This document shows, piece by piece, positions 8,415-14,935 of a DNA stretch of 27,854 bases. The stretch is from positions 1 to 27,854 of the forward strand of contig JBIOZO010000077.1 of the NCBI GenBank assembly GCA_044871215.1, in the 5' to 3' direction. The position numbers were made by a program, and so were the translations under genes. The notes below the pieces were generated by a model. The model did no database searches and was not told the origin of the DNA. It was given only the letters and a program-made list of their open reading frames with translations. Position 1 is the first letter of the stretch, and each line of letters begins with the position of its first letter. This stretch comes from Gaiellaceae bacterium. Lineage in GTDB: Bacteria > Actinomycetota > Thermoleophilia > Gaiellales > Gaiellaceae.

Positions 8415-9845
8415 GTGCGCGCAAAGATCTTCGCGGAGGAGAACCGCAGGTGGTGGACGTTGGGGGCGCTCTGCTTCGCCCTCTTCATGATCATGTTGGA
8501 CAACACCGTTGTGAACGTCGCACTGCCGGCGATCAGGGCGGACCTCGGAATCAGCGTGTCCGAGCTCGAGTGGACGGTCGCGGCCTACGCGCTGACCTTC
8601 GCGTCGCTCCTGCTCACGGGCGGGAAACTCGGCGACCTGCTGGGCCGGCGCCTGATCTTCACGATCGGCCTTGCGGTCTTCACCCTCTCCTCGCTCGCCT
8701 GCGGCCTTTCCTCGAGCGCGCCCGAATTGATCGGCGCCCGCGCGGTGCAGGGGATCGGCGCAGCACTGATGATGCCCGCGACGCTGTCGATCATCTCGGC
8801 AACGTTCCACGCGCGCGAGCGCGGGATGGCGATCGGGATCTGGGCGGGCGTCTCAGCCATGGCGCTCGCGATCGGCCCACTGCTCGGCGGTGTGATCACC
8901 GAGCACATCTCCTGGAACTGGATCTTCTACGTCAACGTCCCGATCGGGGTCGTCGCCGTGCTCGCCGCGATCTTCGTCGTGCCCGAGTCGCGAGACACCT
9001 CGCACGAGCAGCGCCTCGACTTACCCGGCCTGCTCACGTCGGGGGTCGGCCTTTTCGCGCTCGTGTACGCCCTGATCGAGGCGAACACATACGGGTGGAC
9101 CTCGGCGCGCATCCTCGGCCTGTTCGTGGTCGCAGCCGTCGCGCTGACGTCGTTCGTCCTGCTCGAGATGCACCAGCGTCTGCCGCTGCTCGACCTCTCG
9201 CTTTTCCGGAACGGCACGTTCGCCGGAGCGAACCTCGTTGCGATCCTCGTCACGCTCGCGATGTTCGGGATCTTCGTCTTCTTCCCGATCTACATGCAGA
9301 CCTTCCGCGGCTGGTCGCCGATCCAGGCGGGCGCGGCGCTGCTGCCGTGGACGCTGATGGTCGTCGTCTTCGCACCGATCGCGGGCAAGCTCTCCGATCG
9401 CGTCGGGTCGCGCTGGTTGATGGCCGGCGGGATGACCGTGGTCGCCGTCTGCTGCCTGCTGCTCTCGACGGTGACGCTGCAGTCGAGCTTCTGGAACATG
9501 CTCCCGGCGTTCATCCTCGGCGGACTCGGGATGTCGTTCGTGATGACGCCGATGTCGGCCGCCGCCATGGGCGCAGCGCCGGTCGACAAGGCGGGTGTGG
9601 CTTCGGGTGTGCTGAACACGTTCCGCCAGGTCGGGGTCGCGCTCGGGATCGGGATCATGGGCGCGATCATCGCCAACCGCGCCGCGAGCCACGGCGGCCC
9701 GGCGCCGGAGGCGTTCGTCTACGGCCTCACCTTCGGGATGAAGGTCAGTGCGGGGATCTGCTTCGCCGCGGCGATCGCCGCGGCCACGCTCGTGCGCCGC
9801 TACCGGCATGCCGAGGCGAGCACGCCGGCAGAGGCGGCCGCGTGA
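8415..9845 (+). CDS. MFS drug:H+ antiporter, DHA2 (EmrB/QacA) family, 476 aa
   Basis: LDNTVVNVALP (motif D1), GGKLGDLLGRR (motif A) and 'GPLLGG' (motif C); about 14 TM; SD AGGAGG before the GTG at 8415. Confidence 0.95.
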   Translation: MRAKIFAEENRRWWTLGALCFALFMIMLDNTVVNVALPAIRADLGISVSELEWTVAAYALTFASLLLTGGKLGDLLGRRLIFTIGLAVFTLSSLACGLSSSAPELIGARAVQGIGAALMMPATLSIISATFHARERGMAIGIWAGVSAMALAIGPLLGGVITEHISWNWIFYVNVPIGVVAVLAAIFVVPESRDTSHEQRLDLPGLLTSGVGLFALVYALIEANTYGWTSARILGLFVVAAVALTSFVLLEMHQRLPLLDLSLFRNGTFAGANLVAILVTLAMFGIFVFFPIYMQTFRGWSPIQAGAALLPWTLMVVVFAPIAGKLSDRVGSRWLMAGGMTVVAVCCLLLSTVTLQSSFWNMLPAFILGGLGMSFVMTPMSAAAMGAAPVDKAGVASGVLNTFRQVGVALGIGIMGAIIANRAASHGGPAPEAFVYGLTFGMKVSAGICFAAAIAAATLVRRYRHAEASTPAEAAA

Positions 9846-10435
9846 GCTCGAGGCTCTCGGGGCCGGAGCGGCGGCAGGCGGTCGTCGAGACGGCCTGCCG
9901 CGTCTTCGCCAAGAGCAGCTACCGCGGCTCGACGACCGCGCAGATCGCACGCGAGACCGGAGTTACCGAGCCGGTGCTCTACCGCCACTTCGCGTCGAAG
10001 CGCGAGCTCTATCTCGCGTGCCTCGACGCGGTATGGGAACGCGTTCGGGCGCTCTGGGAGAACGCCCTCGAGCAGGAGCCCGACCCGGCGAACTGGCTGC
10101 GCACGATCAGCAAGGCCTACCTCGAGGAACGCGGCGCGGGAAGGATCGTGCTGGTCGACCTCTGGATCCAGGCGCTCACCGAGGCTGCCGACGACCCGGA
10201 GATTCGGCGCGCGCTGCGCGCACAGCTGCGCGAGGTGCACAAGTTCGTCGCGGACGTCATCCGCCGAGCCCAGGACGCAGGAGGGCTGGTCGCCGAGCGC
10301 GACCCCGACGCCGAGGCGTGGATCTTCATCTCCCTCGGGCTGCTGTCGACGATCGATCGCCGGCTAGGCAACCTCGTCGGGGACGAGTTCGACGGCATCG
10401 TCGCGTCACGCCGCGCCTGGATGACCGGGGCGTAG
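9842..10435 (+). CDS. TetR/AcrR-family transcriptional regulator, 197 aa
   Basis: HTH 'STTAQIARETGVTEPVLYRHFASKRELY'; GTGA overlap with the MFS stop. Confidence 0.95.
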   Translation: MSSRLSGPERRQAVVETACRVFAKSSYRGSTTAQIARETGVTEPVLYRHFASKRELYLACLDAVWERVRALWENALEQEPDPANWLRTISKAYLEERGAGRIVLVDLWIQALTEAADDPEIRRALRAQLREVHKFVADVIRRAQDAGGLVAERDPDAEAWIFISLGLLSTIDRRLGNLVGDEFDGIVASRRAWMTGA

Positions 10436-10446
10436 CGCTCCGGACC

Positions 10447-10490
10447 AAAAAGAAAGCCCCCGGCTGCGGCTCCGGGGGCTTTTGGTTTTT
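10447..10490. terminator. Bidirectional intrinsic terminator
   Basis: AAAGCCCCCGG-ctgcggct-CCGGGGGCTTT (11 bp, perfect) with a T-rich tail on + (TGGTTTTT) and on - (CTTTTT). Confidence 0.85.
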
Positions 10491-10620
10491 GCGCTTTGGT
10501 GAGAGGCGACGGCCCGAAGGCCTTGGCTCTGCGGCCCAGCCACTACCTTCGGGCCTTCCGTCGCCGTCTCTGGCGCGCCCCTTGCATCCCGTAAGCCTGG
10601 CGTCCGGCTGGGTGCAAGGT
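10447..10620 (-). ncRNA. Putative ~175-nt structured small RNA, family unassigned
   Basis: Bounded by a near-consensus promoter and a terminator. It folds by eye into two long bulged hairpins plus the terminator and has no convincing ORF or downstream gene. Confidence 0.65.
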
Positions 10621-10626
10621 GGACGC

Positions 10627-10655
10627 AATATAGACCCGACCGGTGGGGGCGTCAA
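10627..10655 (-). promoter_or_regulatory. Strong housekeeping-sigma promoter driving the putative sRNA
   Basis: Minus strand: TTGACG (10655-10650), 17-nt spacer, TATATT (10632-10627); predicted +1 A at 10620. Confidence 0.8.
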
Positions 10656-10788
10656 GTAGCTCGGTCAAGTGATTTTTGTTTCCCCCAGTTCACCCCATTT
10701 GCGGCTCTGGTATGCCCTTTTTGGGGGATATTCCGAAACGGACACTTGCGGATCAGTCAAGTATCCGTTTCACTTCGCCTGCAGGCCT

Positions 10789-12141
10789 ATGTCCTCCCGC
10801 ATGTCCGCAACCCGCCAGCTTCGCCCCGCCGCCCAGCCCGGTAGCGCCCGCCTCGGCGAGCGCGTCCGCCAGCTGCGCGTGGCCGCGGGGCTGACGCAGA
10901 CCGATCTCGCCGGCGACCGTTTCTCCAAGGAGTACGTCAGCCAGATCGAGCGCGGGAAGACCAGGCCCACGCGCGAGACGATCGAGTGGCTCGCCGGGAA
11001 GCTCGGCGTCGATGCCGGCTTCCTCGAGCGCGGTGTCTCCGCCGACGAGCGCAGCCGCGTCGAGACGATGCTGGCCCGCGCGGAGGCGCTGACGAACGCC
11101 GAACGCTTCGACGAGTCGATCGAGGAGTACGACAACCTGCAGACGGCCTTGCTCGCCACGGGCGCGGTCGATCTCGAGGTTCGCGCCCTCACCGGTCGGG
11201 CGTGGGCGCTCGTGGAGCGCGGCGACGTCCGCGACGGGCTCGCCGTGCTCGAGGAGGCCCGCCAGCTCGCCGAGCGGCCGGAGTTCTCGGACATCGACCG
11301 GGCCGACCTGCTCTACCGGATGGGCTACTGCCGCTACAAGCTTTCGAGCAACGCCACCGCGCTCGGCCTCTTCAACGAGGCACTGACGCTGGCCGAGGGG
11401 TCCGGGCTCCCGTGTGACGCTCTGCGGGCCGAGATCTTCCACTCCCGGGCGCTCTGCTACCGCAAGCAGCGCGACTTCGAGGCCGCGCGCGAGGACGTCG
11501 AGCGCGCGCTCGAGCTCGCCGAGGCGCTGGACGACCGGCGCACGATGGCGGACGTGTTCCTGAACGCGTCACTCGTCGCCGAGCGGATGGGCCAGTGGGT
11601 GCTCGCGCGCAGCTACGCCGAGCGGGCCCGCGGCCACTACCAGGAGCTGAACGACGGCCGGAAGTTCGCCGGCGTGCTGAACAACCTCGGCGGCCTGAAC
11701 CTCCTGCTCGGCCGCCCCGAGCAGGCGATCGAGCACCTGAAGGCGTCGTTCGGCGCCGCGCTCGAGGTCGACAGCGTCGAGACGGCCGCGCAGGCCGAAG
11801 GCTCGCTCGCCACCGTGCACCTGCACCTCGGTGACTGGGAGCAGGCGGAGCAGCTGGCGCGACACGCGCTGTCGCTCCTGACCGACCGCGAGGATTATCT
11901 GCACGAGATCGCGCCGACCCAGCTGGTGCTGGGGCGCGCGCTCATGGAGCAGAACAAGCTCGAGGAAGCCGAGCAGTGGCTCCGCACCTCCGACTCGAGC
12001 GCCGAGCGACTGGAGTCGATCGGCCATCGAGCGGCGGCGTGGATCGCGCTCGGGGATCTCGAGACTCGCAGGAACAATCAACCCGAGGCCGCCGTGCTCT
12101 ATCGGCGTGCCGCGGAGGCGCTACAGGATGTCCGGTTCTAA
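10789..12141 (+). CDS. XRE-HTH + tetratricopeptide-repeat transcriptional regulator (NprR/PlcR-like architecture); start at 10789 or 10801
   Basis: N-terminal HTH_3 'LGERVRQLRVAAGLTQTDLA...SKEYVSQIERGKTRP...LAGKLGV' followed by roughly 8-9 helical TPR-like repeats (e.g. 'LLYRMGYCRYKL', 'VLNNLGGLNLLLG'). Confidence 0.9.
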   Translation: MSSRMSATRQLRPAAQPGSARLGERVRQLRVAAGLTQTDLAGDRFSKEYVSQIERGKTRPTRETIEWLAGKLGVDAGFLERGVSADERSRVETMLARAEALTNAERFDESIEEYDNLQTALLATGAVDLEVRALTGRAWALVERGDVRDGLAVLEEARQLAERPEFSDIDRADLLYRMGYCRYKLSSNATALGLFNEALTLAEGSGLPCDALRAEIFHSRALCYRKQRDFEAAREDVERALELAEALDDRRTMADVFLNASLVAERMGQWVLARSYAERARGHYQELNDGRKFAGVLNNLGGLNLLLGRPEQAIEHLKASFGAALEVDSVETAAQAEGSLATVHLHLGDWEQAEQLARHALSLLTDREDYLHEIAPTQLVLGRALMEQNKLEEAEQWLRTSDSSAERLESIGHRAAAWIALGDLETRRNNQPEAAVLYRRAAEALQDVRF

Positions 12142-12160: not shown

Positions 12161-12283
12161 ATGTACAAGGCGCGCATGATCACTTTCGTCGTTTCGCTGT
12201 CCGTGCTGCTGGCATCGTCCGCGGGCTTCTCGCGTGGGCTGTGCTTCTTCCTTGGGAAGGGCAGCAGCTGGTTCGAGCTCTAG
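12161..12283 (+). CDS. Unannotated 40-aa secreted-type peptide MYKARMITFVVSLSVLLASSAGFSRGLCFFLGKGSSWFEL
   Basis: Perfect SD AAGGAGGTGA at 12149-12158; basic n-region, hydrophobic h-region and small-residue SSA site; 19 nt after the regulator stop; below the ORF-track length cutoff. Confidence 0.8.
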   Translation: MYKARMITFVVSLSVLLASSAGFSRGLCFFLGKGSSWFEL

Positions 12284-13342: not shown

Positions 13343-14935
13343 GTGATGGCCCCCCGATTCAACCGCACGCGGCGCGCCCGCGAAGTGGTGAGCGTCGCGC
13401 GCAGGCGGAAGCTCGTCCGCGTGATGCGCGAGCTCGGGGTCGCCGGCAGCCGGCCGGCCACGCGCGAGGGCGCCGTCGAGTTCCGCCGGGCCCTCGAGGA
13501 GCTCGGGACGACGTTCCTCAAGCTCGGCCAGCTGCTCTCCTCGCGCCCCGACCTGCTGCCCGACGTTTACATCGAGGAGCTCTCCAAGCTCGTGGACGCG
13601 GTCCCGCCGTTTCCGTTCGCCGAGGTCGAGCGAGTCGTGCGCGAGGACCTCGGCGATGCGGTGGTGCGGCTTGACCCCGAGCCGCTCGCAGCGGCCTCGA
13701 TCGCGCAGATCCACGGCGCGCTCCTCGCCGACGGGCGGGAGGTAGTCCTCAAAGTTCGCCGTCCCGGGATCGTCGAGGAGGTCGACCTCGACCTGGCGGT
13801 GGTGCGCTCGGCGGTCGAGTTCGTCGAGAAGCGCTCGGAGACGGCCGAGCTGCTGCAGCTACGCGCCCTAGCAGACGAGCTCGAGGTGCATCTCCGCGGC
13901 GAGCTCGACTTCGTCGAGGAGGGGAACAACACCGAGCTGATCGCGAAGCAGCTGGAGGACTACGACGACCTCGTTGTGCCCCTCGTGATCCACCCGTACG
14001 TGACCGAGCGCGTGCTCGTCCTCGAGCGGATCCACGGCCGCAAGCTCGACGTCGACCACGGCCTACCGCCCGACCGGGCCGGGCAGCTAGCCGCCGATTT
14101 CTTCCGCGCATACATCCGGCAGGTCACCCAGTCCGGCGTCTACCACGCCGATCCCCATCGCGGGAACGTTCTGCTCACCGACGACGGACGGCTCGCGCTG
14201 CTCGACTTCGGCTTGCTCGGTCGGCTGGACGACGAGACGCGAACGACGCTCGCGCTGCTGCTGCTCGCGCTCGCGCACAACCGCTCGGAGGACGTCGCGG
14301 CCGTCTTGCTCTCGCTCTCGCTGACGACGCTCGATTCCGACGAGCCGGGCTTCGTCCACGAGCTGCGCCGCAAGCTGCCGCGCTACCACTGGCGCCCGCT
14401 CGCGGGCATCCGCTCCGGCGAGGCGCTGGCCGACCTCCAGCGGATCTGCCTCGAGTACGGCATCCGCCTGCCGCCGAGCTTCGCGCTCGTCGGCAAGACG
14501 CTCTCGCAGGCCGATTCGATCGCGCGGACGCTCGACCCGACTCTCGACCCGATCGCGCTGATCGAGGAGGAGTCGCTCGAGTTGATGCTGACCGAGGCCG
14601 AGTCCCGGCTCGAGCCGGAGCAGCTCTTTAGCCTGCTCTTCACGCAGGTCGGGGCGCTCGCCCGCGTGCCGCGGCGGATGGCGCAGATCGCCGACCGCCT
14701 CGAAACGGGCACGCTCAAGGTCGGGGTCGTCCCGACCGGGCTGGAGAGCCTGGAGCACATGCTTCGGTCGCTCGCCAACCGGCTCGGCGCGGCGCTGATC
14801 GTCGTTGGCCTGTTGATCTCCTCCGCGCTGATGGCGCGGGTGAACCACACGGTCGCGCTCGTCGGCTTCCTGCTTTCCGGCGTGCTCGGGCTGTACATGC
14901 TCTGGCGGATCCTTCGAACCCCAGGAGACCTCTAG
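13343..14935 (+). CDS. AarF/UbiB/ABC1-family atypical kinase with C-terminal TM helices
   Basis: KLGQLLS, AAASIAQIH (A-rich loop), VLKVRRP, HADPHRGN and DFG. Confidence 0.95.
   Translation: MMAPRFNRTRRAREVVSVARRRKLVRVMRELGVAGSRPATREGAVEFRRALEELGTTFLKLGQLLSSRPDLLPDVYIEELSKLVDAVPPFPFAEVERVVREDLGDAVVRLDPEPLAAASIAQIHGALLADGREVVLKVRRPGIVEEVDLDLAVVRSAVEFVEKRSETAELLQLRALADELEVHLRGELDFVEEGNNTELIAKQLEDYDDLVVPLVIHPYVTERVLVLERIHGRKLDVDHGLPPDRAGQLAADFFRAYIRQVTQSGVYHADPHRGNVLLTDDGRLALLDFGLLGRLDDETRTTLALLLLALAHNRSEDVAAVLLSLSLTTLDSDEPGFVHELRRKLPRYHWRPLAGIRSGEALADLQRICLEYGIRLPPSFALVGKTLSQADSIARTLDPTLDPIALIEEESLELMLTEAESRLEPEQLFSLLFTQVGALARVPRRMAQIADRLETGTLKVGVVPTGLESLEHMLRSLANRLGAALIVVGLLISSALMARVNHTVALVGFLLSGVLGLYMLWRILRTPGDL

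What the first reader, a model, noticed from the sequence alone, without database searches (positions are those of the whole stretch)
10447..10655. Unassigned ~175-nt structured RNA transcribed divergently from the HTH-TPR regulator
Seen on the minus strand: TTGACG-17-TATATT, +1 at about 10620. Hairpin 1 is CCUUGCA-CCC-AGCC[GGACGCCA]GGCU-uac-GGG-a-UGCAAGG. Hairpin 2 is a long bulged stem, GAGA-c-GGCGAC-ggaa-GGCCCGAAGG-uag-UGGCU[GGGCCGCAG]AGCCA-agg-CCUUCGGGCC-GUCGCC-UCUC. An A-rich single-stranded linker (ACCAAAGCGCAAAAACCA) precedes the intrinsic terminator. The 3' arm can alternatively fold as GGCC-UUCG-GGCC, suggesting a switchable structure. It has no downstream gene (it converges on tetR), so it is not a cis riboswitch, and I could not match it by eye to tRNA, SRP, 6S, tmRNA or common riboswitch cores. 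Established: RRNPP systems can act through RNAs (aimX in arbitrium, Anti-Q in the PrgX system). Inference: this RNA may be the output of the adjacent receptor-peptide pair.
Basis: partly seen in the sequence, partly recalled or inferred. Interest (0 to 1): 0.8.

Follow-up and report, generated by a model that had tools for sequence, protein, structure and literature searches.

The report
Regulator-coupled small RNA of Gaiellales
This is a real, undescribed, roughly 175-base structured non-coding RNA gene of uncultured soil actinobacteria (Gaiellaceae). It always sits back-to-back with a peptide-sensor-type regulator gene, so it is probably that regulator's output, but what the RNA acts on is still unknown.

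Summary
On the minus strand a near-consensus promoter (10655-10627) is followed by two hairpins and an intrinsic terminator (RNA about 10620-10447). The stretch is non-coding and matches no Rfam family, tRNA or tmRNA.

- **Distribution:** the RNA is single-copy and found in 45/48 genomes of the genus and 42/45 of the family (Gaiellaceae).
- **Sister version:** a diverged form is in 42/45 genomes of a sister family.
- **Structure:** stems covary strongly (35/40 pairs with compensatory changes). The loops are nearly invariant: GACGCCA once, GCCGCAG usually twice.
- **Expression:** soil and rhizosphere metatranscriptome assemblies hold the RNA but not its flanks.
- **Linkage:** every copy examined, including duplicates and paralogues, lies divergent from an XRE-HTH/TPR regulator gene. 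Three genomes lack both.
- **Promoter:** it carries tandem ACTTGAC boxes that are unique in the genome and recur beside distant homologues of the regulator.

The proposed 'switchable' alternative hairpin is not supported. I found no conserved target.

This scan had already found the same RNA family on other genomes (e1-4362120, e1-3107465). I found no published description.

The parts
10447..10620 (-). Transcribed small RNA, about 174 nt, from predicted +1 to the end of the U-run
   Evidence: Promoter and terminator scan. Fold z = -6.4. Covariation. Metatranscriptome contigs cover 10476-10612.
10627..10655 (-). Sigma-70-type promoter: -35 TTGACG (10655-10650), 17-nt spacer, -10 TATATT (10632-10627)
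   Evidence: The -35 and -10 are invariant while the spacer varies across 30 genomes of the genus. They are kept across the family.
10580..10619 (-). Hairpin 1 with apical loop GGACGCCA (10605-10598)
   Evidence: All three of its helices show compensatory changes (helices 1-3). RNAalifold recovers it de novo on a MAFFT alignment. GACGCCA is present in 36 of 42 distinct family sequences.
10501..10570 (-). Hairpin 2, a long bulged stem with apical loop GGGCCGCAG (10537-10529)
   Evidence: Helices 4-6 show 18 of 20 pairs with compensatory changes. The apical loop motif is kept in paralogous RNAs, and as UGGGCCG in the sister family.
10453..10482 (-). Intrinsic terminator hairpin with conserved loop GAGCCGCAG (10472-10464). 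The U-run follows at 10452-10447. The hairpin is bidirectional and also closes the TetR gene.
   Evidence: Helix 7 is 97% paired, with 8 of 10 pairs compensatory. GCCGCAG occurs twice in 37 of 42 sequences. The hairpin is not a genome-wide repeat.
10651..10670 (-). Tandem ACTTGAC boxes with a 13-bp period. The proximal box contains the -35. Candidate operator.
   Evidence: Boxes at -36/-37 and -49/-50 in 34 of the 36 family loci listed. The exact tandem arrangement is found only at this locus in each of 5 genomes. Similar tandem boxes lie beside regulator homologues of two other families.
10687..10693 (+). Degenerate inverted copy of the box (AGTTCAC here, ACTTGAC-like in many relatives). Likely -35 of the regulator gene's own promoter.
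   Evidence: Inverted box near -72 in 15 of 36 loci at one mismatch or fewer. Sequence read. The promoter assignment is inference.
10741..10765 (-). Third ACTTGAC box (10762-10756) inside an imperfect palindrome, 27 nt upstream of the regulator's start codon
   Evidence: a box near -140 in 16 of 36 loci, often paired with an inverted copy near -151.
10789..12141 (+). XRE-type HTH plus TPR regulator gene (450 aa), divergent from the RNA
   Evidence: Pfam HTH_31, HTH_3 and several TPR families. Adjacent to the RNA in every locus examined.
12161..12283 (+). 40-codon ORF with a hydrophobic, signal-like segment (candidate propeptide), directly after the regulator gene
   Evidence: An equivalent 28-40-codon ORF follows the regulator in 10 of the 12 loci, from several genera, that I inspected; none was listed for L211 and L227's is doubtful. 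Its role was studied by another agent (e1-5301931) and is only partly checked here.
9860..10435 (+). Convergent TetR-family gene. Context only, probably not part of the module.
   Evidence: Pfam TetR_N. Adjacent in 28/30, 29/30 and 19/30 loci as phylogenetic distance grows. Absent from the sister-family loci.

Best explanation
This is an independently transcribed, roughly 175-nt structured non-coding RNA gene of a previously uncatalogued family. It forms one conserved genetic module with the divergently transcribed XRE-HTH/TPR regulator and the small propeptide-like gene behind it.

Proposed mechanism:
1. The regulator binds the ACTTGAC boxes that overlap and flank the RNA's -35, and similar boxes in its own promoter and leader. 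It thereby sets the RNA's transcription. The direction of control is unknown. Because the promoter is near-consensus, repression or modulation is as likely as activation.
2. The RNA then acts in trans as the module's effector through its invariant apical loops (GACGCCA once, GCCGCAG usually twice). It would either pair with mRNAs or hold an RNA-binding protein.

Shown here: the gene, its structure, its presence in RNA libraries, its strict linkage to the regulator, and the conserved boxes.

Inferred: binding of the regulator to the boxes, control by the peptide, and the trans-acting mechanism.
For: Gene anatomy:
- Promoter and terminator.
- Fold z = -6.4.
- No coding signal.

Purifying selection:
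- The RNA is 76-94% identical across the genus, while the neighbouring regulator protein is 64-70% identical in most of its genomes.
- Promoter hexamers are invariant and the spacer is free to vary.

Structure:
- 35 of 40 pairs carry compensatory changes. 93.9% of cells are paired against 80.2% in shuffles (0/500). Slid controls score 0.09 or less against 0.373.
- An alignment made without the model gives 19 of 22 predicted pairs with compensatory changes.
- Many G-U pairs fit only the minus strand.

Distribution:
- 45/48 genomes of the genus, and 17/17 of the high-quality ones.
- 245/301 genomes of the family by BLAST.
- 42/45 of the family against 0/105 in the order's other four families, with the covariance model.
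- A diverged sister RNA with the same promoter design is in 42/45 genomes of one of those four families.

Linkage to the regulator:
- The regulator is adjacent in all loci examined.
- Both RNA copies in G044, and the paralogous RNAs of three genomes of genus g4, each sit beside a regulator gene.
- G236 (99% complete), G004 and G020 have no orthologue of the regulator and no RNA; G004's only match is 28% identical.

Candidate operator:
- Boxes at fixed positions in 34 of 36 loci.
- The tandem arrangement is unique in each genome.
- It is conserved beside regulator homologues of only 32-44% identity.

Expression:
- In one rhizosphere metatranscriptome, contigs of 134-163 nt cover only 10476-10612 at word depth 79-315. 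Flanks are at 0-24.
- 18 RNA-type runs (16 on record as RNA) hold words of the RNA. For X1, the 10 sampled words it holds of the 361-nt stretch equal the 10 it holds of the RNA alone, so none come from the flanks.
Against: - No experiment links the regulator, the peptide and the RNA.
- The promoter is near-consensus and the RNA is abundant in environmental RNA. That would also fit a constitutive housekeeping RNA.
- Four regulator paralogues have neither boxes nor an RNA upstream.
- The boxes contain TTGAC, so part of their conservation is simply promoter conservation.
- No conserved target was found in the locus or in a genome-wide scan of translation start regions.
- Expression evidence comes from assembled contigs of relatives (88-99% identity). 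These cannot fix RNA ends, strand or level.
Confidence: 0.52

Rival explanations
1. A constitutive, housekeeping-type abundant RNA (for example a ribonucleoprotein component or a global RNA chaperone partner). Its position next to the regulator would be inherited synteny without a functional link.
For: Near-consensus promoter. One copy per genome and near-universal in the family. High word depth in a metatranscriptome. Loop conservation typical of protein-binding RNAs.
Against: - Co-duplication with regulator paralogues and co-absence in three genomes are not expected from passive synteny.
- The TetR neighbour decays with distance (19/30, then 0/12), while the regulator stays at 30/30 and 12/12.
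- The RNA is restricted to two families of one order, which is unlike core housekeeping RNAs.
- A 6S RNA candidate exists elsewhere.
Confidence: 0.15
2. The RNA acts upstream of, or on, its own module rather than as its output. It would tune the regulator or propeptide mRNA, as antisense and countertranscript RNAs do in the enterococcal pCF10 pheromone system.
For: In several genera, loop 2 can pair with the codons of the propeptide's hydrophobic core at -22 to -28.6 kcal/mol, within the best 0-3% of control windows in the regulator gene.
Against: The pairing is absent in the window's own genus (-16.8 kcal/mol) and in most others, although the loop itself is invariant. There is no transcript overlap, because the promoters are divergent. 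No consistent site lies in the regulator's leader.
Confidence: 0.1
3. A protein-sequestering RNA. The two identical GCCGCAG loops would each bind one subunit of an RNA-binding protein, in the manner of CsrB/RsmZ. This concerns how the RNA acts and could hold together with control by the regulator.
For: The same 7-nt motif is displayed in two hairpin loops in 37 of 42 sequences, and at least once in all 42. Loops are invariant while stems covary. No conserved mRNA target was found.
Against: No candidate binding protein was identified. From my own knowledge, CsrA and Hfq are not known in Actinomycetota. Some family members and the sister family keep only one such loop.
Confidence: 0.15
4. A cis-acting or antisense element for the convergent TetR-MFS operon, acting through terminator read-through or transcriptional interference.
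For: The RNA converges on the TetR gene and shares a bidirectional terminator with it. Low-depth contigs span the terminator into TetR (records 10 and 18).
Against: TetR adjacency is lost in 11 of 30 distant loci and in all 12 sister-family loci, while the RNA persists. The terminator is strong. Conservation of the internal hairpins and loops is unnecessary for interference.
Confidence: 0.03
5. A small-protein mRNA.
For: A 14-codon AUG frame exists in this copy (read from the sequence).
Against: The AUG is not conserved, and indels of one or two bases are common in relatives. There is no GC3 signal.
Confidence: 0.02

Closest known systems
RNAIII and the agr P2/P3 divergent promoters of Staphylococcus aureus (from my own knowledge)
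   Same: A peptide-signalling operon and a structured regulatory RNA are transcribed divergently from one short control region. That region carries repeated boxes. The RNA is the effector arm and uses conserved hairpin loops.
   Different: No sequence or structural homology. RNAIII is about three times longer and also encodes delta-haemolysin. agr uses a two-component sensor and a LytTR response regulator, not a cytoplasmic HTH-TPR receptor. None of the regulation is shown here.
AimR-AimP-aimX (arbitrium) of SPbeta-group Bacillus phages, RRNPP family (from my own knowledge)
   Same: An HTH-TPR receptor gene is followed by a short propeptide gene, with a single dedicated promoter for a short transcript as the apparent sole output. 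The tandem box is unique in the genome.
   Different: aimX lies downstream in the same orientation, whereas this RNA is upstream and divergent. The host is chromosomal and actinobacterial rather than a Firmicute phage. There is no homology. RRNPP systems are described only from Bacillota (PMC10075063).
Qrr1-LuxO of Vibrio, and the classical divergent regulator/sRNA pairs OxyR-OxyS, GcvA-GcvB and SgrR-SgrS (from my own knowledge)
   Same: The sRNA gene is transcribed divergently from the gene of the transcription factor that controls it. The sRNA ends at an intrinsic terminator.
   Different: Those sRNAs depend on Hfq and pair through single-stranded seeds. They come from different regulator families, and there is no homology.
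6C RNA of Actinobacteria (Rfam RF01066)
   Same: An actinobacterial sRNA whose conserved hairpin loops carry a repeated short motif.
   Different: 6C loops are C-rich, while these are GCCGCAG and GACGCCA. The 6C model does not match the window.
CsrB/RsmZ-type protein-sponge RNAs (from my own knowledge)
   Same: A repeated identical motif is displayed in hairpin loops.
   Different: Only two copies of the motif. It is not GGA-centred. No CsrA-family protein is known in this phylum.

Membership tests
Any Rfam 15 family | Covariance-model score at or above the family's gathering threshold | tested here: not met
   0 matches on the whole window. The best sub-threshold hits (26 bits against a threshold of 55) rest on the terminator hairpin only.
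tRNA / tmRNA | Cloverleaf or tRNA-like domain with a tag frame | tested here: not met
   ARAGORN finds no gene in 10200-10900.
6S RNA | 5' and 3' ends paired into one long helix with a large central bubble; one copy per genome | tested here: not met
   This fold is three separate hairpins. RF00013 matches a different locus in relatives: 50 bits in G163, and full-length weak matches in three others.
Cis-regulatory leader / riboswitch | A downstream gene on the same strand whose expression platform it forms | tested here: not met
   An intrinsic terminator is followed by the 3' end of a convergent TetR gene.
Stand-alone bacterial sRNA gene | Own promoter and intrinsic terminator in a non-coding interval | tested here: met
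   The promoter hexamers are conserved across the family.
Stand-alone bacterial sRNA gene | Conserved secondary structure supported by covariation | tested here: met
Stand-alone bacterial sRNA gene | Detected as a discrete transcript | tested here: inconclusive
   Short, high-depth metatranscriptome contigs are confined to the RNA, and RNA runs hold its words but not those of the flanks. Contigs cannot prove ends or strand, and raw reads were not available.
Output RNA of an RRNPP-type peptide-receptor system (aimX-like) | Adjacent cytoplasmic HTH-TPR receptor gene followed by a short secreted-propeptide gene | tested here: met
   Domain architecture. A 40-codon hydrophobic ORF has equivalents in 10 of the 12 loci inspected in other genera. 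At sequence level, only the HTH region resembles PlcR and ComR.
Output RNA of an RRNPP-type peptide-receptor system (aimX-like) | The receptor binds an operator at the RNA promoter | not testable with these tools
   Only indirect evidence: conserved ACTTGAC boxes that are unique in the genome.
Output RNA of an RRNPP-type peptide-receptor system (aimX-like) | The RNA level depends on the mature peptide | not testable with these tools
   Needs culture or a heterologous reporter.

The most novel reading that the evidence does not exclude
The RNA is the effector of a peptide quorum-sensing circuit of the RRNPP type in Actinomycetota. It would be wired like staphylococcal agr-RNAIII (divergent promoters, repeated boxes) but use a cytoplasmic HTH-TPR receptor, and be ancient enough to predate the split of two Gaiellales families. 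This would be the first such circuit, and the first quorum-sensing-controlled riboregulator, outside Bacillota and Proteobacteria. It occurs in one of the most abundant uncultured soil lineages.
Probability: 0.4. Interest if true: 0.82.

Novelty: new variant of a known kind. Interest (0 to 1): 0.62.

Why it matters
Gaiellaceae are abundant, almost entirely uncultured soil actinobacteria with essentially no known regulatory biology. Three points make the RNA worth pursuing.

- **A new RNA family.** It is clean, strongly conserved and apparently highly expressed, which makes it a ready candidate for Rfam.
- **A marker.** Its transcripts can be followed directly in soil metatranscriptomes.
- **A testable circuit.** Its fixed pairing with an HTH-TPR/propeptide pair gives a concrete, testable output for what would be the first RRNPP-like peptide signalling system outside Bacillota. 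The literature places such systems only in that phylum (PMC10075063).

If the link fails, it remains an unexplained lineage-specific structured RNA with unusual twin loops.

Tried and rejected
1. **Rfam and ARAGORN.** Rfam at gathering and E<10 thresholds, and ARAGORN, gave no family.
2. **6S RNA.** Rejected, because a separate 6S candidate exists.
3. **Alternative GGCC-UUCG-GGCC hairpin ('switch').** No comparative support.
4. **Terminator hairpin as a genome-wide repeat.** In two complete relatives it is unique. The own MAG has two further 16-mer matches, which is the level of the reversed control. The 9-mer GNGCCGCAG is at chance frequency in the window.
5. **Local target for loop 2.** Matches to its complement in the window are at chance level.
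6. **Feedback pairing with the module's own mRNA.** I tested the regulator leader and the propeptide start region in 28 loci. There is no consistent site. Loop 2 pairs with the propeptide's hydrophobic-core codons only in some genera.
7. **Genome-wide scan.** I scanned 4873 SD-start sites of the own MAG against the three loops and the linker.
   - Top scores were z = -4 to -5, as expected by chance.
   - The atpE leader hit is a look-alike hairpin.
   - The GAF-protein leader site is not conserved beyond the genus.
8. **Odd pattern hits.** Those in Azospirillum and a deltaproteobacterial MAG are not the RNA.
9. **Small ORF.** Not conserved.
10. **A cultured carrier (Gaiella occulta).** The protein search returned only MAG and metagenome entries among the best 120, so this was not determined.

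Full report
**Observation**

- The only sigma-70-like promoter in 9800-11300 is TTGACG-17-TATATT at 10655..10627. It matches 10 of 12 positions, and none is expected in shuffles. An intrinsic terminator lies at 10482..10453 and is followed by a U-run.
- Folding 10622-10447 gives hairpin 1 (loop GGACGCCA), the long bulged hairpin 2 (loop GGGCCGCAG), an A-rich linker and the terminator. Energy is -98.2 kcal/mol, z = -6.4.
- The plus strand folds less exceptionally (z = -3.7). The many G-U pairs seen in relatives fit only the minus strand.
- Third-position GC bias, which marks every gene around it, disappears between about 10440 and 10780.
- Pfam identifies the flanking genes as MFS and TetR (convergent, ending at 10435) and an HTH_31/HTH_3 plus TPR regulator (divergent, 10789-12141).

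**Not a known RNA**

- No Rfam 15 family reaches threshold on the window. Relaxed searches give only terminator-driven noise.
- ARAGORN finds nothing.
- The 6S model matches a different locus in relatives.
- Full-text searches found no description of the RNA.

**Who has it**

Record titles place the window's relatives in Gaiellaceae (Gaiellales, Thermoleophilia). These are almost all soil MAGs.
- BLAST finds the RNA once per genome in 45 of 48 genomes of the genus, and in all 17 high-quality ones.
- BLAST finds it in 245 of 301 sampled genomes of the family, covering 73 of 89 genera.
- A covariance model built from the genus finds it in 42 of 45 family genomes and in none of 105 genomes of the order's four other families.
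- Starting from the regulator instead, I found a diverged RNA of about 185 nt in one of those families (f5). It keeps the same promoter design and a homologous long hairpin with outer stem GGCGA.../...UCGCC and apical loop UGGGCCG.
- That sister RNA is present in 42 of 45 f5 genomes and in no other family searched.
- Six genomes in the tally (G075, G183, G088, G156, G159, G162) are unpublished. One of them supplied L046, which is in alignment A4 and in one row. No conclusion rests on them, and the covariation alignments A5 and A6 exclude them.

**Selection and structure**

- Within the genus the transcribed sequence is 76-94% identical, while the neighbouring regulator protein is 64-70% identical in most of its genomes.
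- The -35 and -10 are invariant, but the spacer between them varies freely.
- Across 42 distinct sequences from many genera, 35 of the 40 modelled pairs show compensatory double changes.
  - 93.9% of cells are paired, against 80.2% in column shuffles (0 of 500 as high).
  - The covariation score is 0.373, against 0.09 or less when partners are slid.
- That alignment was fitted to the model, so I repeated the test with MAFFT plus RNAalifold. Hairpin 1 and the upper half of hairpin 2 are recovered de novo, with 19 of 22 pairs compensatory.
- The loops do not vary. GCCGCAG is present in all 42 sequences and twice in 37, in the hairpin 2 loop and the terminator loop. GACGCCA is present in 36.

**Expression**

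- 18 RNA-type runs (16 on record as RNA), from soil, rhizosphere, sediment and groundwater and spread over many studies, hold 33-67% of the RNA's sampled words.
- For run X1, the 10 words it holds of the 361-nt stretch that includes the flanks equal the 10 it holds of the RNA alone. These assemblies therefore contain the RNA but not its surroundings.
- I laid four runs on 10100-11200. One rhizosphere metatranscriptome has contigs of 134-163 nt confined to 10476-10612 at word depths of 79-315, with flanking genes at 0-24. All of them stop within a few bases of the predicted +1.
- These are contigs of relatives at 88-99% identity. They show presence and suggest high abundance, but they do not prove RNA ends, strand or level.

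**Link to the regulator**

- Every RNA locus examined has the HTH-TPR gene divergent from it: 30/30, 30/30 and 30/30 in three partly overlapping sets, and 12/12 in the sister family.
- TetR adjacency decays over the same sets: 28/30, 29/30, 19/30, then 0/12.
- Both RNA copies in G044, and the partial paralogous RNAs in three genomes of genus g4, each lie beside a regulator gene.
- Genomes without the RNA:
  - G003 has the regulator at a contig end.
  - G101 and G107 have degenerate or truncated RNAs.
  - G236 (99% complete) and G020 have no match to the regulator, and G004 has only a 28%-identical one. None of the three has the RNA.
- I found no RNA without a regulator. Four regulator paralogues do lack an RNA.

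**Candidate operator**

- The RNA's -35 is part of an ACTTGAC heptamer that is repeated 13 bp upstream. Both copies sit at fixed positions in 34 of the 36 family loci listed.
- An inverted copy near -72 is probably the -35 of the regulator's own promoter. Another box lies near -140, in the regulator's leader.
- The tandem arrangement occurs only at this locus in each of five genomes.
- It recurs beside regulator homologues of 42-44% identity (spacing 23 bp) and of about 32% identity (spacing 14 bp, without an evident -10) in other families.
- This is what a dedicated operator would look like, but the boxes overlap promoter elements and binding is untested.

**How it probably works**

The design resembles other cases where a regulatory RNA is transcribed divergently from the system that controls it. 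Examples are agr P2/P3-RNAIII, LuxO-Qrr1 and OxyR-OxyS, and, among RRNPP systems, AimR-aimX.
- I therefore favour a model in which the regulator sets transcription of this RNA and the RNA is the module's trans-acting effector. The regulator may respond to the 40-aa gene product that follows it. An equivalent small ORF follows the regulator in 10 of the 12 loci I inspected in other genera.
- The invariant loops over covarying stems mark the recognition surfaces. Two identical loops would suit either two pairing sites or a dimeric RNA-binding protein.
- I could not identify a target. Complements of loop 2 in the window are at chance.
- Pairing to the module's own mRNA is inconsistent across genera.
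- A scan of 4873 start regions in the own MAG gave only chance-level or non-conserved hits.

**Prior notes, novelty and confidence**

- Earlier agents of this scan found the same RNA family on other genomes and reached similar readings (e1-4362120, e1-3107465).
- The receptor-peptide pair and the boxes on this window were noted separately (e1-5301931, e1-5301933). I re-derived the synteny, boxes, structure and expression evidence independently.
- What I tested here beyond those notes as shown to me: the sister-family version, co-duplication and co-loss, uniqueness of the tandem box, and rejection of the 'switch'.
- Published work places RRNPP systems only in Bacillota and describes small-molecule signals for Actinomycetota (PMC10075063).
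- Confidence:
  - The RNA gene itself is close to certain.
  - Its functional coupling to the regulator is likely, at about 0.7.
  - The full output model stands at about 0.5.

Noticed in passing
L245:363-590 (+), L246 (minus strand), L264-L275: The sister family f5 of Gaiellales has its own RNA of about 185 nt beside a regulator homologue of 42-46% identity. Its promoter is ACTTGAT-N16-ACTTGAC-N17-TATnGT. The apical hairpin GCCGG-UGGGCCG-CCGG is nearly invariant. The 3' hairpin often lacks a U-run. It is present in 42 of 45 f5 genomes.
   Followed up: partly
L234 / L247:316-437 (G101); L248:392-498 (G107): Degenerate versions of the RNA. G101 keeps only a short 5' hairpin plus a terminator whose loop reads GUGUCGCAG. 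G107 keeps hairpin 2 and the terminator loop but scores below threshold.
   Followed up: partly
window 12161-12283, and the regions after the regulator stop in L211-L237: The small ORF behind the regulator is present in 10 of the 12 loci inspected across genera. Its C-terminal tail is genus-specific (for example ...SWSDGH, ...TFSDGD, ...SSWFEL), as expected of a signalling propeptide.
   Followed up: partly
L214, L215, L217, L220: about 43-49 nt after the regulator stop: In some genera the invariant loop 2 can pair (up to 15 bp with G-U, -22 to -28.6 kcal/mol) with the codons of the propeptide's hydrophobic core (...LAAWLG...). This is not so in the window's genus.
   Followed up: partly
L250:300-335, L252:305-335: Regulator homologues of about 32% identity in another Thermoleophilia family (f8) keep tandem ACTTGAC boxes with 14-bp spacing but have no recognisable -10 or RNA downstream.
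   Followed up: no
window 10569-10576 (minus strand): The single-stranded linker between hairpins 1 and 2 contains the perfect 8-nt palindrome GGCGCGCC, kept in 23 of 42 family sequences. It could close a multi-branch stem or mediate dimerisation.
   Followed up: no
G000:C269:740-755 and G000:C301:1128-1143: Two more exact or near-exact copies of the 16-mer that forms the terminator's upper stem and loop occur in the own MAG. Complete relatives have only one. This is chance level by the reversed control, and I did not inspect them.
   Followed up: no
G003:C25:12652-13976: In one genome of the genus the regulator gene is matched in two pieces that meet at 13575, which suggests a frameshift or an assembly error. 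It lies at a contig end, so the RNA region is missing.
   Followed up: no
G000:C288:1700-1760: The leader of the ATP synthase c-subunit gene forms a hairpin (GGCUG...CAGCC) that resembles hairpin 2's apical stem. It surfaced as a false target.
   Followed up: partly
G163:C1:2624448-2624607; G029:C1:2522501-2522660: Candidate 6S RNA genes of Gaiellaceae. Only one of four reaches the Rfam threshold, so the family's 6S is divergent.
   Followed up: no
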